A stretch of 64,000 nt of DNA from contig NC_058054.1 in NCBI RefSeq assembly GCF_020085105.1, forward strand, positions 6,995,595 to 7,059,594. The letters are read 5' to 3'. A program made the translations under genes and the position numbers. The notes beneath the pieces are model-generated. The model saw only the letters and a list, made by a program, of their open reading frames with translations, made no database searches and was not told the origin of the DNA. Source of the stretch: Siniperca chuatsi. Its lineage: Eukaryota. Of this stretch, positions 9,748 to 25,977 are shown piece after piece; the first letter of the stretch is position 1; each line of letters starts with the position of its first letter.

Positions 9748-9800
9748 GCAGGATGGAGGCGTGTGTGATGAAGCCAGAAGTCAAAAAGAAACTAGAGCCG
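9748..9800 (+). CDS. ApoL-like paralog B, start-codon exon (ATG at 9753): MEACVMKPEVKKKLEP, no signal peptide
   Basis: Acceptor tcttacag at 9741-9747. Kozak-like context gcaggATGG. GTGAGA donor at 9801. Confidence 0.5.
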
Positions 9801-10002
9801 GTGAGAACATTTAGATCTAACACAAAAACACTGAACTAATGCACAACACAGTCTAAATACTCTCCAACACTGAAGTACAACAACACTGTACAGTATATAA
9901 AAACATCAAAAACATCGTACGACAGAGGAAGATGAAACCTGTTATTGTATACAGTACACACTCAGGTCTCATAATGTCTCATGTTCTCTTCTCTTTTCAC
10001 AG

Positions 10003-10029
10003 CCAAAACCTCCTCCAAAGCCTGCAGAG
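10003..10029 (+). CDS. Paralog B mini-exon (27 nt, phase 0): PKPPPKPAE
   Basis: ttttcacag acceptor and GTACTG donor. Open frame continuous with neighbouring exons. Confidence 0.4.
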
Positions 10030-10149
10030 GTACTGGAATAAACCCAAACCTTTGACTAGCTATGTGACAAAGTTACCCAGTAGGTTTTTTTATATATGTT
10101 TTCAGGATGTTGTAGTAAGGCTACTCAGCCAAGTAAACTATCTTTCCAG

Positions 10150-10218
10150 ATAAAAAGAAATGACCCAGAGAGACTGGAGAAACCGACTCCTCTAGTGCCT
10201 CAACGACCTACAGATGCT
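10150..10218 (+). CDS. Paralog B exon (69 nt, phase 0): IKRNDPERLEKPTPLVPQRPTDA
   Basis: ctttccag acceptor and GTAAGT donor. Open frame. Confidence 0.45.
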
Positions 10219-10699
10219 GTAAGTGGAGCATGGTCTTTGGTTTATGTGTACACAATAACGCGTGGGCCAGTTATCTCTAGTGATGTAGGCTCTATAATGT
10301 AATTGTTTTATGTATCCCAGAGTTTACCTTCTACTGAGCAGAAGTGGTGGGCCAACATTTCTTAAAGATCTGGTAAAATGTAACTAAATTAATTAGTCTG
10401 GGTTCCATTGGAGAGGATTTTTCCACTCTGTGAAACGTTAAACTGGGGGAGGGGGTGGTCCATCAAATCTATATCACTTTTAAACATATTGAATATTGAT
10501 ACAAGCTCGCTTCCATCTTTGGCCACTGGCAGCTTCAGCACAGCAATATCAGAACTGATATATGCCGTAAAAAACTAATTGAAAGAAAACAAAAATGTCT
10601 TCATTTGTAATATGAATTATCAGTGTTTTTCATAGAACTTGGAGAATGGGCCTCTTCAGAGAAACAGATTTTTAAAACAGATTGTTGTTTTCTGTGCAG

Positions 10700-10747
10700 G
10701 AACTGACACAATACTGGATAAAAAGAGCTGCAAAAACAAACAATGAG
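10700..10747 (+). CDS. Paralog B exon (48 nt, phase 0): ELTQYWIKRAAKTNNE
   Basis: tctgtgcag acceptor and GTATTT donor. Confidence 0.4.
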
Positions 10748-11649
10748 GTATTTACTGTATATGTTGTTGTTTTTAATAAATTGCTGTTACTTATGTTTTA
10801 CTAGATAGAGAGACAGAAATAAAAGGTGGGGAGGGGATGATATGTGACAATAGTCTTTAGGTTGAGCCTGCATCTGAGAATATCCTGGGAAACTTTGAAG
10901 ACAACTAGACATTTTTTTTATTTAAAAACAAACAAAACTTAGTGGTAAAGACACATACCATGTTTCTGTCAGACTTCTGGTTCAATTCGATTCGATTTGT
11001 TGCGAGTCATAACCCCTTTCTCTCTCCCTCTGTTTTTGTTTCATATCTGCATCTGAACTGTAACCTATTAAAAAAGACTAAATGCAAAATAAATCTCAGG
11101 AAAAAAACCCAAAAGAGGTACGAAAGATTATTTGAAGATGTTAGTCTTATCTGACATCTCACCAATCATTAGCATATAGGTCAATATATGAAACATCAAT
11201 ATAATTATTTAATATGTGGGTTTACATGTGAAAACCAAATTGTTACATATATATATATAAAATATAGCAGCCTGGTTGCTCTGTCTGGCAGCGTTTGACA
11301 TACTTCAGGTCTAGCACGCTACTGCATATAAAGGGGAGAGCATTGTACAGTGAGTCTCAGCTGTGTCAGTTAGCGCTCCCTGGCACTGCTCACCTGAGCC
11401 ACTCCTCCACCTCTCCCTCTCTGCAGCTGATTGCTTAACCATGCCCACCTCCACAGGGAGAAATCTAAATTACTGACCCGCTGCTTGTAAATGCAGATTT
11501 TAGAGTAATCTGATTATAGCAACACATGTAAACATGTTCCTCTGATTCCCTGCCTTAACCTGTTTTGTTTCAGTAGCCTGCTTAACTGTTACTGTTTATG
11601 CTCAGTGTTCATGTTCGCACAGGTTGAGTAACGTTTTTGTTATGTTTAG

Positions 11650-11709
11650 GGTGCAGAGTCGTTACACAGTGAGCTCTCTGCCAGCACTGGCAGCCTGTCG
11701 GAGGCCAAG
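11650..11709 (+). CDS. Repeat array, A-type mini-exon 1: GAESLHSELSASTGSLSEAK
   Basis: tag acceptor and GTGAGT donor. Carries the ELSAS..SLSE motif. 60 nt, phase 0. Confidence 0.6.
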
Positions 11710-12505
11710 GTGAGTCTTCATGTTAGAAATGACAGACAGATCCTCCCCACGCACCCGCTGAAACTACATGAGTCACCATGACTAACATTAAAGCACGTGT
11801 GAGAGAAAATATCTGCAGCTCCGTAGGTGCAAGATAAGGTTCTTTAATTCTGAAATGAAAGAAAATAAGTAAGTAAGCTTTAACATGTTTTCTGCTTTCT
11901 CTTTTTATTGTGGATGTATCGGGGTGGCGGCCTGTGTGTAGTTGTCTCTTGTTTATATTTTTGTCTATACTTGTTCTAAAAGTTTGAAATAAATTACAAA
12001 AAACAATATAACAAAACCCATCACATGCCACTTATGCTGACCTGAATCGACGTAAACAAAATACTGTGTGTACCAACAGCATCATAAACAATACAAAACA
12101 TTTTCACACAGCTCGTCATGGCTGAATCCAAATAGAAAAGGTTCTGTAGAGTCTTTGCCAACACTACAGAAGCTGTAAAAAGATGAAGACTACCTGCTGC
12201 TGCTTGATTATTAGATGACAGAGACTCAACATCATTCCTACCGCCTCATTTCCTGCCTGCGCTCCATTTAACCGGGTTCACCAACCCTATGGGGGGGGGG
12301 GAAAGCAAATGGCAGACCAAATGGAGCACAGCCAGTATGATGCATGTTCCTTGTATGTCCGCCAATGTGCTCAAATGCTTTAATCCAGGAGGAGCAGAAG
12401 TTACAATATGACAGACATTGAAATATTTAAGCACATTTCCTTTTCTTGTAACCCATTTTCTGTGGAGCTTCGCTCTGTTTCTGACCGTTTTAATTCTTTT
12501 TTCAG

Positions 12506-12574
12506 GAGAATCTGTCGGCACAGAAACATCTTTCAGCCAGCAATGACAGTCTGTCTGAGGCTGCCAACACAAAG
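12506..12574 (+). CDS. A-type mini-exon 2: ENLSAQKHLSASNDSLSEAANTK
   Basis: ttttttcag acceptor and GTCAGT donor. 69 nt, phase 0. Confidence 0.65.
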
Positions 12575-13982
12575 GTCAGTTTTTGTTGTAAAAACATTGG
12601 AAATCTGTTATTCACTTTATATTTGAAAGCTGATTTTTAAAGGATCAACATGTCATTTCATTGAATATGATACCTTGGTCCAGTTTCCATAAACAAATGA
12701 GACCAGAGTGTAAAGTTCAGCAGATATTTCCTGAAATCAAACCCCAGGGGCAAACATTGAAAAAATGCAGCACAGAGAAAAGGAGAGGTGATTAGTTGTT
12801 GAATCAGAATCAGAAATACTTTATTGATCCCCGAGGGGAAACTCTTTTGCTGAAGTTATTTTTCAAGCAAAAAGGCCAAAAATTCCCAGATTCCAGCTTC
12901 ACCATTGTGAGGATGAGCTGCTTTTCTTTGCCTTATATAAAATGAGTGTCTTCGGGTTTTGGACTGTGACATCTCTGTGGGCTCCAGGAAATTGTGACAG
13001 ACATTATTCACTATTTTCTGACACTATAGATTAAACCATGAATTGAGAAAATAATCGGCTGATGAATAGATAATGGAAATAATCTTTAGTTGCAGCCCTA
13101 CTTATGGTTGAAATTTAATTTGGTAATGATATGTGCTACCTGTATGTACAGTGATCCAGGTAATACCCTTCACTTTTTCATTTTTCCTTCATTTTATCAG
13201 GTAAAAGTCTTTTTCAAGACATCTGGCGATGAGGGTAGCATTAAAAACATTATTACCACCGTAAATACAAACAACATAAACAAACTAAAACAACTGTCAC
13301 ATGCTTCAAAAGACTACAGACATATATCTAGGACAGATATCTAGTTAGGATTAATTTACAGGTATGAGTTTCCAGAACTTTCAAAATGTTGTAAAAACAA
13401 TAAATTTAGAAGCAAATGCATTGACCAAGAGTACTTTATTAGTTGTTACTGAACGTAACTGCACTACAATGTATTTCTGATCTTTTATTCTGTATGTTGT
13501 TCCAAGAGAGGAAGGAAAAGCATATTTAAAAGCTTTTTTGCCCAACTCTTCGTCTAAACTTCAAAGCATTTCTACAAGGCTCAAGTAAAAAGAAACAGTG
13601 CTTTAAAAAAAATAGAAAATAGCTTTAATGTAGCTATGATAGTGACCAAACTGTGTGCAGAGCTCCTAAAACTAACTAGCATATTTATAAAAATATTCAA
13701 TCTACCTTATTTTCCTGTTCTTTTTTTCTTTATAGATTGTACCTACATTAGGTTATGTTAGGTTTATTAGGAAGATACGTATATACATATATAAATACTG
13801 TAAATGTATTGTATACTTTTTTCTTTTTCTTTTTTTTTTAAAGAAGTTAGCTGTCTTTCTGATTTTAGTTTTATGTGATGTCTTATTATGTATTTTTCTA
13901 ATTGATCCATATGTTCTAAGTCTGGAAGAGGGGATGTGATTACAAAGTAGAAAATAGATAATCATGTCTTCTTTGGAGACAG

Positions 13983-14054
13983 GAGAAAGGAGATGCGTTT
14001 GGTGGAATATTCAAGAAGTCGTCCAGACTTGCACACAGCCCTCCCACAGAGGAA
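13983..14054 (+). CDS. B-type mini-exon 1: EKGDAFGGIFKKSSRLAHSPPTEE
   Basis: AG acceptor at 13981-13982 and GTAAGA donor. 72 nt, phase 0. Carries the GG.F.G.FKK motif. Confidence 0.55.
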
Positions 14055-14332
14055 GTAAGAAGTGTCTTCTTTGTTTTCTGGTCCTTTTCAGTCATCCCAT
14101 ATATCGCTAATATTCTTAAACAGCAAATCAGTGTTTTCAAATTGGATGTTACCAAAATGTCAGACTAGTACACTTGTGACTGGAAGGCTGCTGGTTTGAA
14201 TCCCAGAACCAACAGTAAAAGCATTAGCTGTAAAAGAGCAGTAGGTGGCTCAGTTACCCCTCGCTGTTAGTGATGAAATGTTAAAAAGTCTGTAGCGTGT
14301 AACAGGTTCTGATTGTTTTTATCTCTTCTCAG

Positions 14333-14383
14333 GACGATGAGCTCTCAAGCAGCAGTGAAGCTCTGTCTGAGGACAACACCAAG
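14333..14383 (+). CDS. A-type mini-exon 3: DDELSSSSEALSEDNTK
   Basis: tcttctcag acceptor and GTGAGG donor. 51 nt. Confidence 0.6.
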
Positions 14384-14472
14384 GTGAGGTTTTTTTATGC
14401 ATCATTTAGAAACGGCCCTGAATAACTTTACTTTCGGAGAGAGCACTCATTGTCTGAATATGTATGTTTTAG

Positions 14473-14544
14473 AAAAAAGGAGGAATATTTAGTGGAATAT
14501 TCAAGAAAACTCCCAAACCTGCAAAAGTTGCTCAACCTGAGGAG
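14473..14544 (+). CDS. B-type mini-exon 2: KKGGIFSGIFKKTPKPAKVAQPEE
   Basis: ttttag acceptor and GTAAAA donor. 72 nt. Confidence 0.65.
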
Positions 14545-15031
14545 GTAAAAGTATAATTTGTCTGTGTCATTTACAGCAATATCAACCTTCATATTTTTAT
14601 TTTCTTGGAAGTCTTTTATGATAATGTTTAAATTGTAAAAAGCCTCATTACCTGTTGGGTAGCAGGATATCTGACACTTGTCTTCCAGATTTCTGTTCAA
14701 ATTTGGTGGAAAATTAGGAATACAAACAAACAAGTGATTAGTTGTTGGTGCAGATTCAGTATTTATTTTGAAAGATTTCTTAACATTGTGCATTTTTGAA
14801 TGTTTTCACTATTTTCACATGAACTACTGCACTGAAAATCTGGCACATGTATCCCATGATTGTCTATTACTGTGTATACCATTGCAAAACCATGCTCAGA
14901 TGTTCATTAAATATTTTCTATTACTCATTTCTATTAATATTAATATTACTATACTATATTACTATTAATATAGTAACAGGTAACATTTATTTGTTACCAC
15001 AACTTTTACAACCTCTGATAATTTTTTACAG

Positions 15032-15091
15032 GACGAGTCTTCCGACAACGAGCTCTCAACCAGCAACGAGAATTTATCTGAGAACAAACAG
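15032..15091 (+). CDS. A-type mini-exon 4: DESSDNELSTSNENLSENKQ
   Basis: ttttttacag acceptor and GTCAGT donor. 60 nt. Confidence 0.6.
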
Positions 15092-15189
15092 GTCAGTGAG
15101 TTGAAATCCAAGATGATTAAATGCTTTTCAACAAAACAGCAGTTGGATTTGTAAATACAGTAAAGCCTTTTTATTGTGTATTTCATCAG

Positions 15190-15258
15190 GTGAAAGGTGG
15201 AGGGTTGTTCAGCGGACTCCTGAAAAAGACTCCCAAAGCGTCTGGGGAAAGGACACCG
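15190..15258 (+). CDS. B-type mini-exon 3: VKGGGLFSGLLKKTPKASGERTP
   Basis: cag acceptor and GTGAAT donor. 69 nt. Confidence 0.6.
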
Positions 15259-15347
15259 GTGAATGAGTGTTTCCTGGATGTGCAATGAGTTTCTAAGCCT
15301 GCACGCAATTTCACCCGTTTCATGTAACATAAATTTCTGTGTTTCAG

Positions 15348-15413
15348 GACAGGGAGGCTCAGAAAGAGCTGTCAGCCAGCAACGACGACCCGTCTGAGAA
15401 TAATACGACAAAG
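15348..15413 (+). CDS. A-type mini-exon 5: DREAQKELSASNDDPSENNTTK
   Basis: gtttcag acceptor and GTGAGC donor. 66 nt. Confidence 0.65.
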
Positions 15414-15495
15414 GTGAGCAGTATAATGCAGCAACACCTTAAAAATATAAAATGTCTTTCAAGGGAATGTTCATTGACACCAAATTATTTTCCAG

Positions 15496-15564
15496 GAGAA
15501 AAATATTTTTGGCAACATGTTTAAGAAGCCGCAGAAACCAGCAGAGGGCGCTGCAGCAGACAAG
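15496..15564 (+). CDS. B-type mini-exon 4: EKNIFGNMFKKPQKPAEGAAADK
   Basis: ttttccag acceptor and GTACTG donor. 69 nt. Confidence 0.6.
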
Positions 15565-15664
15565 GTACTGTGATTTGATGAAATTGATTAAATCAGTCTT
15601 TAAACTTCCTGTTATGGAGGATGGAGTAGATGTTGATATTTACTGTTTTCTGGTTTGAATTCAG

Positions 15665-15736
15665 GAGCTGGAGGTGAACAGTGAAAATCAGTTATTTGGT
15701 AGCTGTGAGAATCTGTTTGATACCACCGTCCCGAAG
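15665..15736 (+). CDS. A-type variant mini-exon 6: ELEVNSENQLFGSCENLFDTTVPK
   Basis: ttcag acceptor and GTACAT donor. 72 nt. Confidence 0.55.
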
Positions 15737-16171
15737 GTACATCACTCTTTTAAAAAGAAAACAACACAAAACAAAACCCCTCTTGTTCTTAATTTTTCTG
15801 TCTCAAGGTGGCTGCTGTTGTCATGTGAGCTGAAACCTGATCATGATGATATCTTTGTGTTTGTCCTGTCCTGTCATTGGTCCTGTTGTGCGTTGCATTT
15901 AGCTGCAATCAAATATGCATGTAATAAATAATAATCTTTGTTTGGAGGGCTGTTAGTTACAAAGTGCTTCACACAACAAAAGTAAATAAAAACAAAAATA
16001 ATAAAAAAATTGTTCCAGATGAAAATCAAAAAATGGTGTGAGCAGTGTCTGATTCACTGTGTGTGATTAACTTGGGAGCAGGTTTAGCTTTTGACTCTTG
16101 TTTCTCTTTAGTTTTTCTGTTGTTTCTGAATGTATTCATTGAAGAGAAATAACAAATATTTGTGTTTTTAG

Positions 16172-16237
16172 GAGAAAAAAGGAGGCCTGGCTGGCATCTT
16201 CAAAAGATCAGCCAGCATCGACAGCCTGTTTGACGAG
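16172..16237 (+). CDS. B-type mini-exon 5: EKKGGLAGIFKRSASIDSLFDE
   Basis: tttttag acceptor and GTCAGT donor. 66 nt. Confidence 0.6.
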
Positions 16238-16651
16238 GTCAGTGTCCGCCCCGCACACACTCAACGCAGCATCCTCCCTACAGTTTAAGGCACCACTAAG
16301 GAGACATCATTGTTACACATGACAAAAATAAGTTGCAGAATCTACAGCATGTTTGAAGACAGTACAACTTGATTTTTTTTTTATGGTGTGCTGAAATGAA
16401 CCCAGCGCCTGCCTGAAAGGTAGAAAATAAATCGACTGTATGCTTTGAAACATAATCGGCAAAAATGTATAAAGTGCAATTTGAGGTATGTTTCCTGGAT
16501 AAACCATCTTCTTTCAAGCCTTTTTTTGCACTCTTCACGAGCCAATCGAGAGAAGATTATCAACAAAATGTCCAACATTAAACTGTGTTAATGACCTTTT
16601 ATCTTTGGTTTCAAACTTTGCACTGCACTCATTTGCATTTTCACTCATCAG

Positions 16652-16723
16652 GAAAAAGGCGGGCTGTTCAGTGGACTTCTTAAGAAAACACCCAAAGTGT
16701 CTGGAGATGAGGCAGCTGCAGAA
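16652..16723 (+). CDS. B-type mini-exon 6: EKGGLFSGLLKKTPKVSGDEAAAE
   Basis: cag acceptor and GTGAGT donor. 72 nt. Confidence 0.65.
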
Positions 16724-16810
16724 GTGAGTGTGTGACTTAGTTACACTGTTGGCATCACTGTCTGTGGTGACTGTTGCATATTTATATATTGTCCATTTCT
16801 CTTTTTTCAG

Positions 16811-16876
16811 GACAAAGATGACCAGAAGGAACTGTCAGCAAGTAATGATAGTCTGTTTGAAAACAGCAACACTAAG
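16811..16876 (+). CDS. A-type mini-exon 7: DKDDQKELSASNDSLFENSNTK
   Basis: cttttttcag acceptor and GTGAAA donor. 66 nt. Confidence 0.65.
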
Positions 16877-17041
16877 GTGAAATGTTGGTTTTTGAACCAC
16901 GAAAGGAATTTCAACAAAATTTCAACATGCTCGTACTGTTCTTTGAATTTTACTGTCAGCTGTGACACATTACAGATACTCCTGATGTAGTTTTTACTGC
17001 CACTTATACAGATTGTGTCTGTGTCTAATGTCTGTTTTTAG

Positions 17042-17110
17042 GAGAAAGGTATTTTCAGTGGCATGTTTAAGAAGACTCATAAATCAGCAGAGGGGACTAC
17101 AACAGATGAG
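17042..17110 (+). CDS. B-type mini-exon 7: EKGIFSGMFKKTHKSAEGTTTDE
   Basis: tttttag acceptor and GTACAG donor. 69 nt. Confidence 0.6.
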
Positions 17111-17211
17111 GTACAGCAATGACCCTTTCACATAAAGTTCATAGTATATTATACCATTTGACTCTACTTTGTATCTGTCTTTGTCTTTTTTATGTTTTAT
17201 TTTATGTTCAG

Positions 17212-17283
17212 GAATTGAACACAGGCGAGGATAAGAAGTTATCGGCCAGTTGTGAAAATCTGTTAGAAGCAACCACGTCAAAG
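17212..17283 (+). CDS. A-type mini-exon 8: ELNTGEDKKLSASCENLLEATTSK
   Basis: ttcag acceptor and GTACAA donor. 72 nt. Confidence 0.6.
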
Positions 17284-17380
17284 GTACAAATGTTGTCCGA
17301 CGACCACAATCTCAGCCTGTTTTTCTCTGTTCTGCCACTGATTAATGACTATTAACGTGTGAATGTTTCTTATGTTTCAG

Positions 17381-17452
17381 GAGAAGACTGGAGGACTGGC
17401 AGGGATCTTCAAAAAGTCTCCGAAACCAGCTCCACGCTCGATCGCTACTAAG
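17381..17452 (+). CDS. B-type mini-exon 8: EKTGGLAGIFKKSPKPAPRSIATK
   Basis: tgtttcag acceptor and GTGACC donor. 72 nt. Confidence 0.6.
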
Positions 17453-17642
17453 GTGACCAAATAAACTAATTTTGTTTTGTTTTTTTGTGGTGATGTGTAT
17501 GGTTACCGGTTGTTGAGTTGTCTGTGAAATCTCTCATTTACATTTTTAAGCGAATCATATTGTGCTCAAATTCTTCAAAAATAACCTTCAACAAGTTAAA
17601 ACTAATTGATTTGCCTACAAAATGTTCCTTTTTGTTTTCCAG

Positions 17643-17705
17643 GATCCTCTCAGTGACACAAAGGAACTGTCCGCCAGCTGGGACAGCCTCACAGAAACTG
17701 CCGAG
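17643..17705 (+). CDS. A-type mini-exon 9: DPLSDTKELSASWDSLTETAE
   Basis: ttttccag acceptor and GTGAGA donor. 63 nt. Confidence 0.6.
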
Positions 17706-18206
17706 GTGAGAGCTTCTCGAAGTCTGTGGATGCACTTGGCAACTTGTTGAGCAACGCTGATGCTGTAGGCGACAGTGCCAGTGTACTTTCATGAGAATAT
17801 TGTTTTGCCAGCAAACATTTGAATAGTTTTGAGAGGATGACCCCTCTCAGAACACTATGCTAAGGTTGAAGGCTAAAAAACATATCTGCACACTTATATC
17901 CAATGATATTTTTTAATATTTAAGCCAAGCCAAGCTTTCTTCTTTCATGTTTGACAAAAAGGAATCTCAGAGCACTGGAGCAGTGTGCAGAGCCTTCCTT
18001 TCTCTAGATTATCTGCCAGAAAACATTTAAAATAGATTTGCAATGCCGTTATTTACAGTTTTATATTTACTTTTAAACATCTGAGTAGGTTTTTGATCCT
18101 GTGTTAAACTTTGTTGCCAGTTTATGAGAGGGTTCCCCAACAACCTCACCCAAAAGTTTCAGTAATAACACAATTCTTGTTTTGTTGTTTGTTTTTTATT
18201 TTAAAG

Positions 18207-18269
18207 GATGATCTTGGTGAATTGTCAACCAGTAACAATAATCTTTCTGAAGTTACAAGCACCACAAAG
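18207..18269 (+). CDS. A-type mini-exon 10: DDLGELSTSNNNLSEVTSTTK
   Basis: ttttaaag acceptor and GTGAGT donor. 63 nt. Confidence 0.55.
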
Positions 18270-18366
18270 GTGAGTCTTGTAGAGTGTATTATTCTGTTTG
18301 ATTGTATCAACATAGTTTTGCTGTTTTGTGACTTAAATGAATGCTTTATGTTTTAATTTTTAACAG

Positions 18367-18426
18367 GATAAAAAAGGAGGGTTTGCTGGAATTTTCAGGA
18401 GGACGCCCAAAACAGTTGAACACCAG
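18367..18426 (+). CDS. B-type mini-exon 9: DKKGGFAGIFRRTPKTVEHQ
   Basis: taacag acceptor and GTACGA donor. 60 nt. Confidence 0.6.
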
Positions 18427-19245
18427 GTACGATATCATCAGCAATGAGAGGTGTGAAGTGTATTTATCAACACTTTTTTGAATCGTACAATCAGTAGTAG
18501 TTGGAACAACATATCTAGTAGCAGTAACAGTAGTCATAGTGGTAGTAACCTACAGAGAAGTAGGGCTAATCAGGAATAGGGTTATCGATGTAGATTAATT
18601 TCTAATCTGTACATTTGTTGTCAAAGAAGCAACTGAAGATGCTCTAAATACATAAAGAACATATTTTGTGATTTGATTTGCATGTTATGGTATTTGGCAG
18701 TTTTTAGTTTTATGTGCTTTGTTGTCTCTGTGGTCAATACAAAATGACTTTTAGAAAAAACAAAAACAAATTTATAGTGCTAACTATAAGGGCACTCGGA
18801 GAGCACAGACCTTCGCCAAGGCCAATAGTCCAGTCTTCCATGATATGCAAATCTGCAAGCGCAACCACAATATATGGCTGGATATATTTCCAAAACTATT
18901 AGAATTGCAGCATGTCAAAATATGGTTGTGCCTCATCATCTTAACCCACAATTGACCTATCTCGCAATGTTAACGAAAGTGAAAAATAATTTAGTGTATC
19001 TGCCCCGTGATTCGGATCCGCTCCAAAATTTTATGGGATCTTCCTTAGCCCATGCTACACCCTTCCACATCGTTTTCCTGTAATCCTGCTGACAGACAAA
19101 CAAACGACACCGAAAACATGACCTCCTTGGTTCTTGAAGTAATAATGGGTATAGAGAGTTAGCATTGCGAGCAAGTTAGATGATCCCTATAAAATCCTGT
19201 ACAGCTGTTAAGCAATTATCTTTGCTATCTGTCTTCATTTGTGAG

Positions 19246-19308
19246 GACGTGGAGGCACCAGAAGGAGGTGGGCTGAGACGCAGGACAACCATCAAGAAAA
19301 AAACACGA
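19246..19308 (+). CDS. Candidate additional, degenerate B-like mini-exon: DVEAPEGGGLRRRTTIKKKTR
   Basis: AG acceptor after a pyrimidine-rich tract, strong GTGAGT donor at 19309. 63 nt, phase 0, no stops. The motif is only loosely B-like. Confidence 0.35.
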
Positions 19309-19518
19309 GTGAGTTGTTCACTTCAGAAACATCATGACAGAAGACAGAAAACCAAAGTGTATTTCAACATCTATACCACTAGGTGGTTTAGGTTACTTAT
19401 ACTGTATCCATACATGAGATTATTTTTCTCTTGCTTCTCCAGTTTGAGCTCTTACCTTTTGATGTTAAAGTCATCTTGTCATTGACAAACCTTTCTTGTT
19501 TCGTTTCAATGTTCTCAG

Positions 19519-19581
19519 GTTGTATCATTCCGAGTCAGAAAAACTCTTCCCAAAATACCCAAGCTTAATCTAACTTCACAG
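19519..19581 (+). CDS. Paralog B exon (63 nt, phase 0): VVSFRVRKTLPKIPKLNLTSQ
   Basis: ttctcag acceptor and GTATGT donor. Open frame. Confidence 0.45.
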
Positions 19582-19919
19582 GTATGTAATGATCTCCTCT
19601 AGTTGTTCCTCAGTTACTTCTCACTTTGCTGTTTTGCTCCTGTTCTTTAACTGCATTAACAAAGACCGATCTGAAATTTGGTATAGATATGGATATCAAC
19701 ATGCTGAACATTTTCCTTTTACATTTTTGATTGAATGGTTGTTGTCCTGAGTAATTTTTTGACACAGATACATGTTCTGTCTCTACAAATATGCATTGTC
19801 CTCTTTTAAATTCATATTTCCTTTAGTTGTTTACTGGTTTTATTATTGATGTGTGTTAAAGTTCTCCAATGAACTTATTACTAAGTTAATGACATTAATC
19901 GTCCTTTATTCCTCCATAG

Positions 19920-19982
19920 AGTTCAGACAAGATCCCTGTTTTTGAGGAGACTGTTGAGCTGCAGGATCTGAACCCAGCGCAG
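19920..19982 (+). CDS. Paralog B exon (63 nt, phase 0): SSDKIPVFEETVELQDLNPAQ
   Basis: tccatag acceptor and GTTAGC donor. Open frame. Confidence 0.45.
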
Positions 19983-20653
19983 GTTAGCATGATGATATTA
20001 TAAAATAGATATACAGGAAAAAAACATTTTAGTGGGGTTCACAAATGTCCAACCAAGCCTAAATCTTAACTAAAATTTATATATATATAAAACATCTTTT
20101 ACATTAATAAATTAATTAACTCACTAAATAAAACTGGAACAGTCTGAAGATTCAGATACACTTGTAAAAAGCGAAGAAATGTATAATACATGAAAATGGA
20201 AGTACGTTTTTAAAGCATTGCTGATATGAAAATGTTAAAAACACTGTGTAGTCATTTCAAATGTTTACAAACATAACATATCATGTTTATCATGTAATCA
20301 GACACTTGTGAGTTGTGGGAATCTGCAAATTAAAAAACCTCTGCTGCTCATAAGAGTCTCAGCCTGCGTAAAACAGTATAATAATTACATCATATCCTTA
20401 TAATATTATTAACTGTGTATTTCCTTTTGTGAAGCACAACCTTAGGTCACCACTCTACATCTGATTACAGGGAGAAAATAAACCCTTTTCTGTATGTGAT
20501 ACAGAACCATACAGACTGTCAACCGCTGAGAATCAGAATCTGTGTCCCTCTAACAGGCATACAGAGAGAATGGTAGTGACAGTAGTTACAGATACTAACC
20601 CTTTTAACTGAATTTTTTGTCACAAAGTTGTGTTATTGTGTTTGTTTTTCCAG

Positions 20654-20728
20654 GAGAGCACAGTGGAGGTCCAGCCTGTGAAGATGGCAGCTTACAATAC
20701 TGAAGACAACCCTCTTGAATCTGAGCAG
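20654..20728 (+). CDS. Paralog B exon (75 nt, phase 0): ESTVEVQPVKMAAYNTEDNPLESEQ
   Basis: tttttccag acceptor and GTGTGT donor. Same position as paralog A exon 495-572. Confidence 0.5.
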
Positions 20729-20738
20729 GTGTGTTTTT

Positions 20739-21819
20739 GGGTGCTTTCACACCTGTAGTTTGTCTCTTGGTCCGGATCGAATGAACCAAAGTGACACAAT
20801 ATTGCATTTTAGTTCTGGTCTGGTTCGTGTTCACACTGACTTTTTATAAACAAACCAAAAAGGAGTAAACACAAAGTTATACAGACTGACAGGTAACTCG
20901 TTGATTGGACAGTTTCGGTGATGGCATCCTGCATCATCAGTGCATCATCAGGACCCACGTGGGGAATTCAAATTCCTGTGACTGACAGAAGTTTATGCAG
21001 CAATTTAATGCTTCTGATGTGTATATTTATGTTCTTCGGTGTCACAAAGAGCTCATGAAGAAGTATCTGATTATGAGCATTATTAATATTATTGGACTGC
21101 AAATCGACCGCATGTTATGAATAATGACTTACAGGTAGATAAAGGACTAAAAAGAGGCATCTTGTACAGCAATATTCCAGGGGTAATTACTGTGGGATCA
21201 CTCTGTCACACACTTTTTAATGGACTTAATTAAGTAAATAATTAAGCACATGGAGTAGGATACAAACACAACACACCTGAGGTTTCCAGGTCCAGAAAGA
21301 AAGTTCCTTTGACAATAAATTAACACTTTCTACAGGGAGATAGTCCATGAGTGGCCTCTAAATGTTCAGAAATGGCTGATCATTACCTTTAAGCACAGAG
21401 CTGAGCCTTTCATGTGGTAATACATTAAAGATTTCTTTGTACCAGAAAGTAACAGTAGGAGGGGTTTCCTTGAACGTTTTTTACCAAATGATTTAAATGA
21501 ATATATACATGGCTTATACAGATCATTATCTCACTTATCAGATTGCTTCCTAAACAGTTCAGGACCAGTAGATGGATTTATTAGTAGTTTAGCTTTTGAA
21601 ATCATGCTAAAATCACATCCCTACTATCAAAAAGTCCTGTGGTTGGTCTGTTTGCTTTCAAACCACAAATTAATCGCACCAGAGTCTGCTTGGAGGGTCT
21701 CGGTCCGGTTGTTTGGTTCGAGCGACAGCTCTCACAGCAGCCCAAACGGCCGCACTAACCGGGCAGACGCACCATATTTCATTTTAACTGAACCAAACAG
21801 GTTAGTTGTGAAAGCACCC
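20739..21819. mobile_element. Non-autonomous DNA-transposon-like insertion in a paralog B intron, with about 13-15 bp terminal inverted repeats (GGGTGCTTTCACA ... TGTGAAAGCACCC)
   Basis: The inverted repeat sits at 20739-20753 and 21805-21819. No long ORF lies inside. Confidence 0.45.
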
Positions 21820-21919
21820 TTAGTGTTTGTGTGTGTGTAAGTGTGTTTGCATGTTTTACTACATATATGCAACCGATACTGTATGTTGTCTTTTCATTGA
21901 CGAAGGTCTCTGTTTTCAG

Positions 21920-21959
21920 GAAAGTGATGAGTTGATGGAGTGGTGGAACACCGTCAAAG
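21920..21959 (+). CDS. Paralog B exon (40 nt, ends phase 1): ESDELMEWWNTVK
   Basis: tgttttcag acceptor and GTCAGT donor. Paralogous to exon 694-733. Confidence 0.7.
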
Positions 21960-22062
21960 GTCAGTATGATTGTGTTCATCTTTAATCTTTAAGTTTGTTG
22001 TGCTGTTCCACCAGGAGAATTACCACTGATGCCAAAGAAAGTGTGGAAATCACACACTCACT

Positions 22063-22092
22063 CACACACACACACACACACACACACACAAA
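22063..22092. repeat. (CA)n microsatellite
   Basis: Perfect CA dinucleotide run. Confidence 0.95.
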
Positions 22093-22227
22093 TAAATAAA
22101 AATGTTTCTTTTAATGTAAAGTCCCAAAAAAAGATTCAATAAATCAGCACTAAAAACTAGAAACAAAACACTGTTTTATGTATTTGCTCCATATACTAAT
22201 TGTATTATTTCTGCTTCCGGTTTACAG

Positions 22228-22279
22228 GTTGGACGGACTGGAATGAGACATCCAATTTCCAGGAAGGGGATGAGGAAAT
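22228..22279 (+). CDS. Paralog B exon (52 nt): GWTDWNETSNFQEGDEE(M)
   Basis: tttacag acceptor and GTAAGT donor. Paralogous to exon 1403-1454. Confidence 0.7.
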
Positions 22280-22918
22280 GTAAGTTTATTTTCTTTAATA
22301 ACTTTTCATTCAAATTTACCCAGAAGATATTATTTTGGCATTCTGAGGACATTTTAGTGTGCAGGAGGCTGTTTAATCTTTTTTTTTTAGTCAGCACCAT
22401 CTGACCTGTCGCAAGTACTGTTGCTACTGCTATCTAAAGTAGCTAGGAAGCTCATTGATAATGGGCAAATGTAAAATAATTAAATGAATCAATCATTTTT
22501 AATTGGTTAACTCCATCCATCCATTTTCTGCTTCTTATCCAGATCCAGGTTGTGTTAATATAGTTAATTATAGCATTAGAAATTATTGTTATATACTGCT
22601 GGGAACGAAGTACTGAAAAAAATGTGATATAATAATGAATAATTTTGGGTCATAACGTCCCTGCTAGTTTTCCATCGTACTTTCAAGCTTTGGCCAATAT
22701 GACTGAAACAGGTATTAAACTGGTTTATTGGTGAACTCTGCAGAATCCCTGTTATCCAGTATTTGTCAACATTCGGGTTCAAATGATAAATGTAAATATT
22801 TTAAGAGCCCATGTTTTGCTGGGTCCACACACATGCACGTAGGAAATAGCTATTTCTTAGACTTACAAGCATTTAACTTTAAACTTAACAAATACACCAT
22901 CCATCCACCATTCTCCAG

Positions 22919-23333
22919 GGCGATGGAGCAGGCAGCTGATCGTGTCTACATGGCAGCTCGTCTGTTTGTGCATCTTTTCAACCAGCGGGGGGCGTCCTTA
23001 CAGCATCGCATCCTGGAGCTTTTGGCTCTGGCCGACGCTGCAGATCAATTCCACAAAAGAACAGTGACAGCTGCTGTGGGTGGAGGGGTGGCCAGTGTTG
23101 CAGGCAGCGTGGCAACAATCACAGGGCTCATTCTGGCGCCTTTCACTTTTGGTGCCTCTATTATTGTCACAGCGGTGGGGATTGGCGTGGCGACAGCGGG
23201 CAACATCACGGCAGCGACAGCCAATATCACAGATACAGTTCACTCCAGCATGGACCGCAAGAAGGTGGAGAAGATGATCCAGAGCTATCAGGAGGAGATC
23301 AAAGACATCAGAGAGTGTTTGGAGTTCGTACAG
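22919..23333 (+). CDS. Paralog B exon, first half of the ApoL domain: AMEQAADRVYMAARLFVHLFNQRGASLQHRILELLALADAADQFHKRTVTAAVGGGVASVAGSVATITGLILAPFTFGASIIVTAVGIGVATAGNITAATANITDTVHSSMDRKKVEKMIQSYQEEIKDIRECLEFVQ
   Basis: ttctccag acceptor. The frame carries over from the previous exon (at + g gives atg). GTGAGG donor at 23334. Homologous to paralog A residues AFAVTADKVQ...FIKQ. Confidence 0.8.
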
Positions 23334-24192
23334 GTGAGGAAATGTTTGATTTGAGTTTGTAGCTGAATCTCACATAGGCTTTGCAGATGTGTCTACAGAC
23401 TTATTACTGCTGGTGACATTATACAGGTTCACTGGAGACATAGTAATGCAAAAATACTGTAACTAGACCAGAACTAGAGATTCCTGAAAAAAATGTGGTT
23501 GCTTTGTAGATTAATCTGTAAAAAAAAATTCCAATGTAGTAACAAGAAATGTTTGAAGTAATGTAGAAAGTGTTGCACTGTTACTGCTCGGTATGTATTT
23601 TAGTCACAGTTCTTTCGAAAAATAAATTCAAGGGATTCCTATCCTATGTCCCTAAAATGTTTGTGTTTATGTAAAAAATAATACTGGCCAATATTGTAAC
23701 TCTCAAGTATTAGCATTTTTATATCTGCCTCCAGTATAGAAATCTAGTATTGATCGGGCTGTGACTGCTTTTGAGTTTAGCTTGAGAAGAGCTCAGTTGG
23801 CTTAATCGTTAAACCAGTAGGTGTGTTTTTGTATTGTTAGCTAGCTAACTAGACATTAAGATAGTTTAGTTAGCTAGTAAATACATTTTTATTTGACATG
23901 GACATCACAATAGTAATGGAATTGCATAGAGATGCATTGGGTGTGAGAATGACTTTGTGTAGCAATAATGGAAAACACCTGTCGTCGGGTAATTAACGAA
24001 AGTAACTGATGTCAATATCGAAATGATAGTAGCCACCGCTAAAGCTAGGTTTTACTACATGTAGGCTAAGTAAGGAAGGAAATGTGCATCAAAAATGAGT
24101 TTGGGATTACATATGTGAATAGTTTTAAAATCACGGGAAAACCTTGAACCTTTAGTAGTGTCCTCCTTTTTTTGTCTCTGTGCCACTTGTAG

Positions 24193-25977
24193 GACGGTAT
24201 GGACACCCTGCAGGAGTGGGACTTTGAGAAATACTCAGAGAGTGCTGCCAAAAAGGCTCTGAACCACAACCTCAAGCATGTGATGAAGGAGGGCGGCCGT
24301 GCCGGAAAAGCCTTGATGATCAACACCGATAAGCTCATCAGCACTGTGCAGGTTTTAGGCGCTGCAGGCGGAGCCGCCAGAGCTGCCCAGGCCATCAGCG
24401 TCACCACAGGTGTCATGTCGGCCCTCTTTCTCGCTCTGGATGTTTTCTTCCTCGCCAAAGACTCCCACGAGCTCCACAAGGGCGCCAAAACTAAGTTTGC
24501 CACCAAGATCAGGGACGTATGTAAAGAACTTCAAGAAGGCCTCCTGGAGCTGAACAAGGTGAAGACACAGCTGCAGAAGACCATGGACGGCATTGAGGTG
24601 GAGGAGTACGAGGAGATTGAGGAGGTAGAAGTGGAAGTTGACGACGATTTGGAGTCGGATCCAAAGAAGCTGGCTGAGCTGGAGCAGGAGCTGGACCTCC
24701 TGGAGGAGAAACTGGACAAGAAGGTCGAGGAGGAAGAGCAGAAGAAGATTAAAGAGATGGAGAAAGAAAATTTGAAAAGAAAGAAGGAGAAAAAGGAGGA
24801 GAAGAGCATGAAGGAAAAAGGAGAGCCAGAGGAAAAGAAGGAGAAGGAGGAAACAGGAGAAAAGGATGCTAAGAACGAGGGAAAAAAGGAAAGTAAGAAG
24901 GGAGGAAGTGAGGGAGAAAGCAAGGTTGAGTCAAAATTAGAGAAGATTTCTGATGAGGAAAAAGAGCAGAACAATGAGACAGTCAAAGCAGCCAAAGAGG
25001 AAGTTTTAAATGAACAATCTCAGAAACAGAAGAAGGACAAAGAAACTGAGAACCGAATTACAGCTGGAAAAGAAATATATGAGAGCAAGCAAGACAAGGC
25101 AAAAGAAGACATTAGTACAAATAGAAAGGCAGACGAAAAGGAAAAAGAGAAAAATAAGACTGGAAAAGAACACAAGGAAATTAAGAGCAGATCAGACGAT
25201 TCAAAACGAGAGGACCGGAGTGGAAAAGCATATTCTGAGAGGGTCAAAACAGAGAGAGAAAGCGAAAGGAGTAAGAGCAGCAGAGAGGATGAAAGAGTGA
25301 TGAATAAAGAGAAAGAGGCAGAAAGTGGGAGTGCAAGGAGGCACAGCAGCAGGAGTGACAAAGATAGACCCCACAGACGTGAAAGAGGGAGCAAACACGA
25401 AAATAAAGAAACCGAGAGATGCAGCAGCAGAGACAGAAAACAAAGTGACAGGAGGGAGAGCAAGAGGAGGACAGAGGAGGACAGAGGAGTGAGGGACTGG
25501 AGAGCAGAGATGGCAAAAAGTAGAGACGAGAAGAGAGAGAGCAAGGAAGGAAGAGAATCTAAGAGAGAGACAGAGAGAGGGACAGAAAGGGAACATCATG
25601 GAAAAAGCAACGTGAGCAAAGAGTCACATCGAAGCCACGAAACGGCGACGAGGAGGAAGCATTCGGAAAGAGAGTGGGGGAGCAGCAGGGAGGAATCTGA
25701 CTCGAATAGGAGTCACCACAGGAGAGGAACAGCCCCGCATGATGACCGGAGGGAGAGAGCAGATGAGAAACGAGGGAGCAGGATTGAGAGGGCAAAGAGG
25801 CAGTTTGAGAGAGCAGGGGGTGAGGAGGAGGAGGACAGGGGGAAGAGGAAAGAGGATGGACAGAGTCAGGGGAGGGACAGAGAGAGGAGAGGAAGTGATA
25901 GAGGCAGAGAGCACCACAGCCACCGAGGAGCTCGACCACGATCCAACGCGCTGCTGGAAGACGGACTGAATATTTAA
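24193..25977 (+). CDS. Paralog B terminal exon: second half of the ApoL domain (..VMSALFLALDVFFLAKDSHELHKGAKTKFATKIRDVCKELQEGLLELNKVKTQL..), then an open low-complexity tail of about 480 codons (K/E-rich, then R/S/E/D-rich) to TAA at 25975-25977
   Basis: ttgtag acceptor in frame. This matches the 592-aa ORF in the track. The homology to paralog A stops at about codon 130 of this exon. The tail is only weakly supported, because the GA-rich sequence is open in several frames on both strands. Confidence 0.7.
   Translation, partial: DGMDTLQEWDFEKYSESAAKKALNHNLKHVMKEGGRAGKALMINTDKLISTVQVLGAAGGAARAAQAISVTTGVMSALFLALDVFFLAKDSHELHKGAKTKFATKIRDVCKELQEGLLELNKVKTQLQKTMDGIEVEEYEEIEEVEVEVDDDLESDPKKLAELEQELDLLEEKLDKKVEEEEQKKIKEMEKENLKRKKEKKEEKSMKEKGEPEEKKEKEETGEKDAKNEGKKESKKGGSEGESKVESKLEKISDEEKEQNNETVKAAKEEVLNEQSQKQKKDKETENRITAGKEIYESKQDKAKEDISTNRKADEKEKEKNKTGKEHKEIKSRSDDSKREDRSGKAYSERVKTERESERSKSSREDERVMNKEKEAESGSARRHSSRSDKDRPHRRERGSKHENKETERCSSRDRKQSDRRESKRRTEEDRGVRDWRAEMAKSRDEKRESKEGRESKRETERGTEREHHGKSNVSKESHRSHETATRRKHSEREWGSSREESDSNRSHHRRGTAPHDDRRERADEKRGSRIERAKRQFERAGGEEEEDRGKRKEDGQSQGRDRERRGSDRGREHHSHRGARPRSNALLEDGLNI

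What the first reader, a model, noticed from the sequence alone, without database searches (positions are those of the whole stretch)
11650..18426. Exon-level organisation of the repeat: strict A/B alternation with occasional A-A and B-B neighbours
By my count there are 10 A-type and 9 B-type exons, with a tenth degenerate B-type candidate. The order is A A B A B A B A B A B B A B A B A A B, then the degenerate B-type candidate. Every exon is phase 0 and a multiple of 3 in length, so any subset can be skipped or duplicated without disturbing the frame. This is the signature of an expanding and contracting exon array. Similar arrays occur in titin PEVK exons, mucins and some antifreeze or immune genes. 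Copy-number variation between individuals and extensive alternative splicing are both likely. The intron between adjacent cassettes is short (80-450 bp), consistent with unequal crossing-over.
Basis: seen in the sequence. Interest (0 to 1): 0.7.

Follow-up and report, generated by a model that had tools for sequence, protein, structure and literature searches.

The report
Repeat mini-exon array in fish ApoL gene
The 19 short exons are real: they encode a disordered repeat region, alternating an acidic serine-rich motif with a basic phenylalanine motif, at the front of a teleost apolipoprotein-L-family protein, and the array is old and conserved rather than currently expanding.

Summary
There are 19 exons (10 A, 9 B) in the stated order, all with AG/GT borders, all multiples of 3, all phase 0. 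Introns are 82-1408 bp, not 80-450. The array is the N-terminal part of one 31-exon, 1336-aa teleost ApoL-domain gene (+ strand, 9753-25977). Orthologous exons are conserved in Cottoperca and Scomber: exon identity 88.8% against 77.6% for introns, and dN/dS 0.32. The breaks in alternation have specific causes. B-B (11|12) is the junction of an old block duplication [7-11]/[12-16], and exon 11 is a fused B+A exon. A1-A2 has a decayed B pseudo-exon between them. A17-A18 is ancient. Introns of paralogous cassettes share no significant similarity, so nothing in this window is a recent duplication. Across teleosts, exons and blocks are gained, lost, fused and locally re-amplified, so 'expanding and contracting' holds on an evolutionary scale. 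Isoform sets from four species show no A/B cassette skipping. Variation between individuals could not be tested. The region is a predicted disordered, charge-blocked polyampholyte with a 45-aa period. No Pfam family matches it, and I found no literature on it. Its function is inferred only.

The parts
9753..9800 (+). Exon N1 with the start codon (MEACVMKPEVKKKLEP)
   Evidence: Read from the sequence. Matches the N-termini of the orthologues ('MEACMMKPEVKK'). GT donor, phase 0.
10003..10029 (+). Exon N2 (PKPPPKPAE)
   Evidence: AG/GT borders, 27 nt, phase 0.
10150..10218 (+). Exon N3 (IKRNDPERLEKPTPLVPQRPTDA)
   Evidence: tblastn match to P0001 and P0005. AG/GT borders, 69 nt.
10700..10747 (+). 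Exon N4 (ELTQYWIKRAAKTNNE)
   Evidence: Syntenic with the Cottoperca exon ELSQTQYRMKKATSDE. AG/GT borders, 48 nt.
11227..11607 (+). Site of a large contraction: 380 bp here correspond to about 6.7 kb in Cottoperca that carry several further N-terminal exons and about 7 A/B exons
   Evidence: Collinear blastn with a gap and no residual similarity. The missing units are present in Syngnathoides and Scomber.
11650..11709 (+). Array exon 1, type A (GAESLHSELSASTGSLSEAK)
11826..11877 (+). Probable decayed B pseudo-exon between exons 1 and 2 (acceptor CAG changed to CAA, in-frame TAA, 12-nt gap)
   Evidence: Syntenic alignment to the intact Cottoperca B exon at L002 18886-18945. The B exon is also present in Scomber and P0036.
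12506..12574 (+). Array exon 2, type A (ENLSAQKHLSASNDSLSEAANTK)
13983..14054 (+). Array exon 3, type B (EKGDAFGGIFKKSSRLAHSPPTEE)
14333..14383 (+). Array exon 4, type A (DDELSSSSEALSEDNTK)
14473..14544 (+). Array exon 5, type B (KKGGIFSGIFKKTPKPAKVAQPEE). Absent in Cottoperca, present in Scomber and Syngnathoides.
15032..15091 (+). Array exon 6, type A (DESSDNELSTSNENLSENKQ). Absent in Cottoperca.
15190..15258 (+). Array exon 7, type B; first exon of block copy 1; paralogue of exon 12
15348..15413 (+). Array exon 8, type A; paralogue of exon 13
15496..15564 (+). Array exon 9, type B; paralogue of exon 14
15665..15736 (+). Array exon 10, type A; paralogue of exon 15
16172..16237 (+). Array exon 11, a fused B+A exon (EKKGGLAGIFKR + SASIDSLFDE); last exon of block copy 1; its B half is the paralogue of exon 16
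   Evidence: A-profile hit at 16208-16234. DNA similarity of its 3' half to the A exons 2 and 8. Conserved as a fusion in Scomber, Syngnathoides, Neolamprologus, Hippocampus and P0036.
16652..16723 (+). Array exon 12, type B; first exon of block copy 2
16811..16876 (+). Array exon 13, type A
17042..17110 (+). Array exon 14, type B
17212..17283 (+). Array exon 15, type A
17381..17452 (+). Array exon 16, type B (EKTGGLAGIFKKSPKPAPRSIATK); the most widely conserved unit, recognisable as far out as Sardina
17643..17705 (+). Array exon 17, type A
18207..18269 (+). Array exon 18, type A (the A17-A18 adjacency is conserved in other percomorphs)
18367..18426 (+). Array exon 19, type B (DKKGGFAGIFRRTPKTVEHQ)
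19246..19308 (+). A conserved basic exon, but not B-like by profile.
19519..20728 (+). Linker exons L2 (19519-19581), L3 (19920-19982) and L4 (20654-20728), all phase 0
21920..22279 (+). Linker exons L5 (21920-21959, ends in phase 1) and L6 (22228-22279, phase 1 to 2), encoding the W-rich motif ELMEWWNTVKGWTDWNE
22919..23333 (+). First ApoL-domain exon
   Evidence: Pfam PF05461, E=1.2e-23. Borders.
24193..25977 (+). Last exon: second part of the ApoL domain plus a charged low-complexity tail of about 430 aa, then the stop codon
   Evidence: Pfam PF05461, E=1e-9. ORF. Model.

Best explanation
The 19 mini-exons are genuine coding exons of a single teleost ApoL-family gene ('apold1a'-type; + strand, 9753-25977; 31 exons; 1336 aa). 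The protein reads: short N-terminus, the A/B array (residues 65-485), a basic/acidic linker, the ApoL membrane-active domain, and a long charged tail.

The array is built from a two-exon unit of about 45 aa. The acidic, serine-rich A motif has the core L-S-[AG]-S-[NST]-[DE]-[SN]-L-[ST]-[ED]. The basic-aromatic B motif has the core K-G-G-x-F-x-G-[MIL]-F-[KR]-[KR]-[ST]-P-K-P.

The array grew by tandem duplication of B+A exon pairs and larger blocks. Every exon is symmetric and phase 0, so duplication, deletion, decay or fusion of exons leaves the frame intact, and the array evolves by exon birth and death.

In this genome the copies are old and individually conserved. The recent events are losses: the 5' third of the array, and one B exon that is now a pseudo-exon. 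Each departure from strict alternation has a specific history. B-B (11|12) is the seam of an old block duplication ([7-11] against [12-16], and possibly 17), in which exon 11 is a B+A fusion. A1-A2 flank the dead B exon. A17-A18 is an ancient percomorph feature.

Protein level, inferred and not shown: the region is an intrinsically disordered, charge-blocked polyampholyte. Its many weak basic-aromatic B motifs (similar in character to the MARCKS effector domain) would give multivalent binding to acidic membranes or to a partner. The interleaved A motifs, which carry CK2-type serine sites, would tune that binding. Together they would target or regulate the ApoL domain.
For: Shown:
- Exon borders, lengths and order.
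- One continuous 1336-aa ORF over 31 exons, with 27 consecutive phase 0-0 exons.
- ApoL domain downstream.
- 27 of 48 further family representatives carry A/B units followed by ApoL in one protein. The same is true of P0008, P0015, P0016 and P0020.
- The window is collinear with the Cottoperca locus, introns included.
- Orthologous exons are 67-100% identical in protein. Exon identity is 88.8% against 77.6% for introns, exon indels are all multiples of 3, and dN/dS is 0.32.
- Block duplication: 7-12, 8-13, 9-14 and 10-15 are reciprocal best partners and exon 11's best partner is 16. DNA alignments span exon-intron-exon with E=4e-16 and 8e-15.
- No significant intron similarity between paralogous cassettes.
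- Scomber has collinear counterparts of 18 of the 19 window exons, 15 of them by a wide margin, plus the B exon between 1 and 2; the exon 4 counterpart appears.
- Pseudo-exon relic in the window, and a frameshifted fused exon 8'/9' in Cottoperca.
- An intronless transcript contig of the paralogue carries 13 A/B units in one ORF.
- Motif cores derived from 96 A and 131 B units.
- Disorder: pLDDT 23-34 with no secondary structure over the A/B units and the first three linker exons of the orthologue. The array is 81% polar residues, FCR 0.32, with charge segregation z=2.9-4.3 and a period of about 45 aa.
Against: The biochemical role has not been tested. No Pfam family, including WH2, MARCKS and Treacle, matches the repeats even at E<=10, so the membrane-binding and phospho-switch idea rests only on composition and on resemblance recalled from memory. 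The AlphaFold alignment had only 10 sequences, so low confidence is weak evidence for disorder. There are no transcript data for this species. NCBI models in three species (Cottoperca, Syngnathoides, Hippocampus) separate the array from ApoL, so transcripts that end early cannot be excluded. The 6.7-kb 'deletion' at 11227-11607 could be an assembly collapse.
Confidence: 0.8

Rival explanations
1. One reading: an actively expanding and contracting cassette array, with copy number varying between individuals and extensive alternative splicing of A and B exons.
For: All exons are symmetric phase 0. Copy number and content differ between species. Scomber has an exact 43-aa B-A duplicate. Sardina and Albula have near-identical re-amplified units.
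Against: In this window no cassette pair shares intron similarity and TRF finds no tandem array. 18 of the 19 exons have a collinear counterpart in Scomber. 23 predicted isoforms in four species never skip an A or B exon. There are no population data.
Confidence: 0.2
2. The array is a separate gene encoding a stand-alone repeat protein, distinct from the downstream ApoL gene, as annotated in Syngnathoides, Cottoperca and Hippocampus.
For: The NCBI models P0001, P0005 and P0006 end before ApoL.
Against: Those models break at three different places and end by reading into introns. In Cottoperca the break coincides with a frameshifted duplicate exon, and the rest of the array sits in the next model, which carries ApoL. 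Most full-length family members join the array to ApoL. In the window, exon 19 through L1-L6 into ApoL splices in frame.
Confidence: 0.08
3. The B units are functional short motifs of a known type (WH2/thymosin-like 'LKKT' actin binders), or they are released as cationic peptides from a polyprotein whose A units act as acidic spacers.
For: B contains [LIM]-[FL]-K-K-[ST] and is cationic and aromatic, while A is acidic. The alternation of acidic spacers with cationic peptides recalls amphibian peptide precursors (from memory).
Against: No WH2 hit or any other Pfam hit at E<=10. The N-terminus MEACVMKPEVKKK is not a signal peptide. The B units are not flanked by dibasic processing sites. The hydrophobic part of B is much shorter than a WH2 helix.
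Confidence: 0.05
4. Chance ORF fragments or dead pseudo-exons.
Against: Cross-species exon conservation, dN/dS 0.32, indels in multiples of 3, family-wide presence, and a transcript contig of the paralogue.
Confidence: 0.01

Closest known systems
Apolipoprotein L family (Pfam PF05461; human APOL1-6 and APOLD1)
   Same: The gene carries a clear ApoL domain, including the hydrophobic helical hairpin. Sources name its relatives apold1a, apolipoprotein L1 or L6.
   Different: The mammalian APOLs and APOLD1, and the compact zebrafish 'apol1' locus studied so far (2.6 kb; PMC4492502), are not described as having a repeat extension. The A/B array of 400-700 aa and the long charged tail were found only in teleost proteins in the samples I could name.
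Treacle (TCOF1) and Nopp140 (NOLC1, DAO-5) repeat regions
   Same: Disordered repeats that alternate acidic serine-rich (CK2-type) stretches with basic stretches, encoded by in-phase repeated exons (from memory). Automatic annotation calls several family members 'nucleolar protein dao-5-like'.
   Different: No profile similarity. Here each half of the repeat has its own exon. The B motif is aromatic (two Phe) as well as basic. The array is attached to a membrane-active ApoL domain rather than to LisH or SRP40 modules.
Titin PEVK, nebulin and collagen-type arrays of short symmetric exons
   Same: Tandem short exons in the same phase that encode low-complexity or disordered protein. They evolve by duplication of single exons and multi-exon super-repeats, and exon loss is frame-neutral. 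Some members are auto-named 'titin homolog'.
   Different: No sequence relationship. The two-exon A/B alternation is specific to this family. The extensive differential splicing seen in PEVK is not seen in the predicted isoforms here.
MARCKS effector domain (basic-aromatic membrane-binding segment with a phosphorylation switch)
   Same: B (…SG[MIL]FKK[ST]PK…) resembles the MARCKS '…SGFSFKKNKK' segment in character: Phe residues plus a Lys cluster, next to phosphorylatable Ser/Thr (from memory; motif).
   Different: No Pfam MARCKS match. Each B unit is shorter and weaker, but there are 9-15 of them, interleaved with acidic units. Lipid binding has not been tested.

Membership tests
ApoL family (PF05461) | Significant match to the ApoL domain profile in the same gene product | tested here: met
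   E=1.2e-23 and 1e-9 for the two exons, both above the gathering score. They lie in frame with the array.
APOLD1 orthologue ('apold1a') | Orthology of the ApoL domain to tetrapod APOLD1 rather than to other APOLs (phylogeny or synteny) | not tested
   Only source-given names support this (Sardina 'apold1a', Poecilia 'apold1a', Channa 'Apolipoprotein L domain-containing protein 1'). Other sources name relatives APOL1 or APOL6.
Symmetric-exon tandem arrays (titin-PEVK-like kind) | Tandem short exons, all in the same phase and all multiples of 3 | tested here: met
   19 array exons, and 27 consecutive phase 0-0 exons in total.
Symmetric-exon tandem arrays (titin-PEVK-like kind) | Evidence of duplication of exons or blocks | tested here: met
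   Block [7-11]/[12-16]. Lineage-specific duplicates in Cottoperca and Scomber.
Symmetric-exon tandem arrays (titin-PEVK-like kind) | Extensive differential splicing of the cassettes | tested here: not met
   No A/B cassette differs among 23 predicted isoforms from four species. These are predicted models from other species, so the test is indirect.
Treacle / Nopp140 repeats | Profile similarity to Treacle or SRP40/Nopp140 families | tested here: not met
   No Pfam hit in the repeat region at E<=10, in the window protein or in P0001.
Treacle / Nopp140 repeats | Alternating acidic Ser-rich and basic segments | tested here: met
   A exons have net charge -1 to -5 with 4-8 Ser/Thr each. B exons have net charge 0 to +5. 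Charge segregation z=2.9-4.3, period about 45 aa.
Treacle / Nopp140 repeats | Nucleolar localisation and CK2 phosphorylation | not testable with these tools
   This needs cell biology or phosphoproteomics.
WH2 / thymosin-beta actin-binding motif | Match to the WH2 profile (amphipathic helix followed by LKK[TV]) | tested here: not met
   No WH2 hit at E<=10. B has only the 'KK[ST]' part.
MARCKS effector domain | Match to the MARCKS family profile; binding to acidic lipids reversed by phosphorylation | tested here: not met
   No Pfam hit. Lipid binding cannot be tested here, so the resemblance is one of composition only.

The most novel reading that the evidence does not exclude
Teleosts have given ApoL-family membrane-active proteins a lineage-specific, evolvable targeting module. 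It is a valency-tunable array of weak basic-aromatic membrane-binding motifs (B) interleaved with phospho-regulated acidic motifs (A). Exon gain and loss would set how strongly, and under what signalling state, the ApoL domain is delivered to acidic host or pathogen membranes. This would be an undescribed short-motif pair and a new mode of regulating ApoL proteins.
Probability: 0.2. Interest if true: 0.55.

Novelty: new member of a known kind. Interest (0 to 1): 0.35.

Why it matters
ApoL proteins are membrane-active innate-immunity and cell-death factors, and they matter medically (APOL1 kidney disease, trypanosome lysis). Fish are used to model them. The fish genes that carry this array are named inconsistently ('dao-5-like', 'titin homolog', 'claspin-like', 'apolipoprotein L1', 'apold1a'), and in three of the species I examined the models cut the array from the ApoL part. 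Recognising a conserved, teleost-wide two-motif repeat region attached to ApoL would correct those annotations, define two candidate short linear motifs to test, and provide a clean example of exon birth, death and fusion in a phase-0 array. It does not bear on a long-standing open question, and arrays of this general kind are well known.

Tried and rejected
- Tandem Repeats Finder on 10-20 kb found no array. The copies are too diverged at the DNA level.
- Intron-against-intron global alignments with shuffle controls gave no significant pair, and the pairs expected from the block duplication were not even among the top scores. Recent unequal crossing-over in this genome is therefore rejected.
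- Pfam on the spliced array at E<=0.01 and then E<=10 found nothing. Membership of the WH2, MARCKS, Treacle, Nopp140 and PEVK families is rejected. The 'faint' precomputed Pfam marks on homologues (PF26369, PF11881) were not reproduced.
I used the orthologue P0020 instead. The model is too low in confidence for a fold search, so none was run.
- An exact look-up of my 1336-aa model found it is not in the protein collection, so the source species was not identified.
- Literature searches for 'apold1a', for the motif strings and for the zebrafish clone name returned only gene-list mentions. The zebrafish apol1 papers and the APOL evolution paper do not mention the repeats.
- The L1 exon as a tenth B unit is rejected by the profile score against shuffles.
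- I did not run a second homology search with the ApoL domain to settle APOLD1 orthology, because the output would be swamped by fish orthologues.

Full report
**1. The observation**

The window is teleost genomic DNA. Between 11650 and 18426 on the + strand there are 19 short exons of 51-72 nt. Each is preceded by AG, followed by GT, and is a multiple of 3 in length.

The introns are 82-1408 bp, not 80-450; the first two are 796 and 1408 bp.

The 'tenth degenerate B' is most likely the next exon, 19246-19308 (DVEAPEGGGLRRRTTIKKKTR), which lies outside the stated range. It is conserved among species, but against the B profile it scores no better than its own shuffles (-2.2 bits; shuffles average -0.4 and reach 9.2). 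I therefore do not count it as a B unit.

**2. What the exons belong to**

ORFs downstream (22728-23354 and 24199-25977) and upstream (2032-2949) match Pfam ApoL, PF05461. A search with the conceptually spliced array found homologues only in teleosts, and several of them carry the A/B repeats followed by an ApoL domain in one protein.

Mapping those proteins onto the window and reading the splice sites gives a 31-exon model: N1-N4 (9753-10747), array exons 1-19, linker exons L1-L6 (19246-22279), and two ApoL exons (22919-23333 and 24193-25977). It translates into 1336 aa with no internal stop. N1 through L4 are 27 consecutive phase 0-0 exons. The phases become mixed only from L5 onward, just before the ApoL domain.

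The upstream ApoL ORF belongs to a tandem paralogue. Relatives of that paralogue (P0022, P0023, P0007) also carry A/B units at the N-terminus. The repeat therefore predates the duplication of the gene.

**3. The exons are real and under constraint**

The orthologous loci of Syngnathoides (L001) and Cottoperca gobio (L002) show the same gene order. The window aligns collinearly with L002, introns included.

- Orthologous exons are 67-100% identical in protein, while paralogous exons within a genome are much less alike.
- Over the aligned blocks, exon identity is 88.8% and intron identity 77.6%.
- There are 21 gap columns in exons, all forming multiples of 3, against 253 in introns.
- dN/dS is 0.32.
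- An intronless 1,747-bp contig assembled from an SRA run (P0007/L003) encodes 13 A/B units of the paralogue in a single ORF. This is transcript-level evidence that such exons are spliced in series.

Chance ORFs are excluded.

**4. Why alternation is broken where it is**

Exon 11 also pairs with exon 16. At the peptide level 7-12, 8-13, 9-14 and 10-15 are reciprocal best partners at a constant offset of five exons. An old duplication of a five- or six-exon block therefore placed the two B exons 11 and 12 side by side.

Exon 11 (EKKGGLAGIFKR-SASIDSLFDE) is itself a B motif fused to an A motif. Its 3' half hits the A profile (it is significant in Scomber) and resembles A exons at the DNA level. 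At the motif level alternation is therefore kept. The fusion is conserved in Scomber, Syngnathoides, Neolamprologus, Hippocampus and P0036.

*A-A (exons 1|2).* Cottoperca, Scomber and P0036 have a B exon between the orthologues of exons 1 and 2. The window keeps a decayed relic at about 11826-11877, with the acceptor CAG changed to CAA, an in-frame TAA and a 12-nt gap.

*A-A (exons 17|18).* This adjacency is shared by other percomorphs and is therefore ancient.

**5. How dynamic the array is**

Within this window no duplication is recent:

- TRF finds nothing.
- Paralogous introns show no significant similarity.
- Scomber has collinear counterparts of 18 of the 19 exons, 15 of them by a wide margin; the exon 4 counterpart appears.

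Across species, however, the content changes by whole exons and blocks:

| Lineage | Change |
|---|---|
| Window | 380 bp (11227-11607) where Cottoperca has about 6.7 kb with several further N-terminal exons and about 7 A/B exons that Syngnathoides and Scomber also have |
| Cottoperca | Lacks exons 5-6. Has an extra diverged block whose exon 8'/9' is a fusion with a 1-nt frameshift, which explains why its annotation splits the gene |
| P0036 (species not identified) | Lacks exons 7-10 |
| Hippocampus | Much-reduced array |
| Scomber | An exact 43-aa B-A duplicate |
| Sardina, Gymnothorax, Albula | Arrays of locally re-amplified, near-identical B-A units, with only the last units orthologous |

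Gains and losses mostly involve B+A pairs or multiples of them. That is what register-preserving unequal exchange between like exons would produce; this last step is an inference. So 'expanding and contracting' is correct on an evolutionary timescale but does not describe the present state of this locus.

**6. Alternative splicing and individual variation**

Predicted isoform sets are available for Hippocampus zosterae (11), Betta splendens (5), Alosa alosa (4) and Synchiropus splendidus (3). They differ at alternative 5' exons, at one non-A/B exon, in the C-terminal tail, or by single residues. They never differ by an A or B cassette. This is indirect evidence (predicted models, other species), but it speaks against 'extensive' cassette splicing. 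Copy-number variation between individuals cannot be tested with these tools.

**7. Distribution and prior knowledge**

An exhaustive phmmer search of 1.84 billion representative proteins with the Syngnathoides protein found only 56 clusters at E<=1e-3. Of the 48 new ones, 27 have A/B units N-terminal to an ApoL domain. Every hit whose organism I could retrieve is a teleost, from Elopomorpha through Clupeiformes and Siluriformes to Percomorpha.

The names given by sources are inconsistent: dao-5-like, titin homolog, claspin-like, ankycorbin-like, apolipoprotein L1 or L6, apold1a. Pfam has no model for the repeats. The searchable literature has nothing on 'apold1a' or on the motif strings. The zebrafish apol1 papers (PMC4492502, PMC4854397) and the APOL evolution paper (PMC8557400) do not mention such a region.

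**8. How it most likely works**

*Genomic level (shown).* This is a phase-0 symmetric exon array that evolves by duplication, decay, deletion and fusion of exons, with purifying selection on the individual units.

*Protein level (inferred).* From 96 A and 131 B units the conserved cores are:

- A = L-S-[AG]-S-[NST]-[DE]-[SN]-L-[ST]-[ED], with one Ser invariant
- B = K-G-G-x-F-[SAG]-G-[MIL]-F-[KR]-[KR]-[ST]-P-K-P

A exons carry net charge -1 to -5 and 4-8 Ser/Thr. B exons carry net charge 0 to +5. The 421-aa array is 81% polar residues, nearly neutral overall, and its charges are more segregated than in shuffles (z=2.9-4.3), with a period of about 45 aa. AlphaFold2 on the Poeciliopsis orthologue gives pLDDT 23-34 and no secondary structure over the A/B units and the first linker exons, while the ApoL helices reach 60-85 (the alignment was shallow). 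The N-terminus is not a signal peptide.

My best guess is a disordered, multivalent module. The basic-aromatic B motifs would bind acidic membranes or a partner weakly but with avidity. The acidic A motifs contain S-x-x-[DE] sites of the CK2 type (established consensus, recalled from memory) and would modulate that binding. Together they would target or regulate the membrane-active ApoL domain. I put the probability of this at about 0.2-0.25. Nothing here tests it.

**9. Verdict**

The array is a previously undescribed member of a well-known kind: tandem symmetric exons encoding a disordered repeat. It is attached to an ApoL-family protein and is teleost-specific as far as sampled. Interest is moderate to low. 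The finding is useful for annotation and as a source of two candidate motifs, but it is not surprising in kind.

Noticed in passing
window 492-563 and 2020-2949 (+): A tandem paralogue of the array gene, of the 'apolipoprotein L1' type (77% identical to Astatotilapia P0023 over the ApoL part). Relatives of this paralogue also carry A/B repeats at the N-terminus, so its own array should lie just upstream of the window.
   Followed up: partly
window 24700-25977 (+): The last exon continues into a tail of about 430 aa, rich in E/K/R/S, on a strongly purine-rich strand (GC skew 0.35, AT skew 0.47). It ends in a conserved '...EDGLNI'. Betta isoforms differ mainly in this tail.
   Followed up: partly
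window 21920-22279 (+): A tryptophan-rich linker motif, ELMEWWNTVKGWTDWNE, lies just before the ApoL domain and is conserved in both paralogue groups (for example LMDWWGTVEQWEDM in Oncorhynchus). Its function is unknown.
   Followed up: no
L002 21293-21379 (Cottoperca gobio locus): A duplicate exon that fuses the first 15 nt of exon 8 to exon 9 and carries a 1-nt insertion in an A-run. It shifts the frame and coincides with the point where the NCBI annotation splits the gene into two models. It could be a real pseudo-exon or a homopolymer sequencing error.
   Followed up: yes
L001, L002 and Hippocampus zosterae proteins P0006/P0010: Public gene models separate the repeat array from the ApoL part at three different positions, each ending by reading into an intron. 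These are probably annotation artefacts, but early-terminating transcripts are possible.
   Followed up: partly
window 32036-32557 (+): An ORF with a GIY-YIG nuclease domain (Pfam E=7.7e-7), typical of Penelope-like retroelements.
   Followed up: no
window 38933-39619 (-): A 228-aa ORF with a weak ALKBH8_N Pfam hit. It looks like the C-terminal part of a retrotransposon reverse-transcriptase ORF rather than a host gene.
   Followed up: no
window 51556-51984 (-): An exon encoding an RRM domain (Pfam E=3.4e-13), hnRNP-C/RALY-like. It belongs to an unrelated neighbouring gene on the opposite strand.
   Followed up: no
window 14908-14989: An AT-rich palindrome (self reverse-complement alignment of about 82 bp) inside the intron between exons 5 and 6.
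   Followed up: no
window 12788-12822 and 14734-14768: A short similar segment shared by two introns ('gattagttgtt…', 77% over 35 bp). It is probably a fragment of an interspersed repeat rather than a trace of cassette duplication.
   Followed up: no
Hippocampus zosterae isoforms X1-X11 (P0006, P0010, P0024-P0032): The isoforms are mosaics of two slightly different versions of the 5' non-repeat exons. This suggests a duplicated 5' exon block used alternatively in that species.
   Followed up: no
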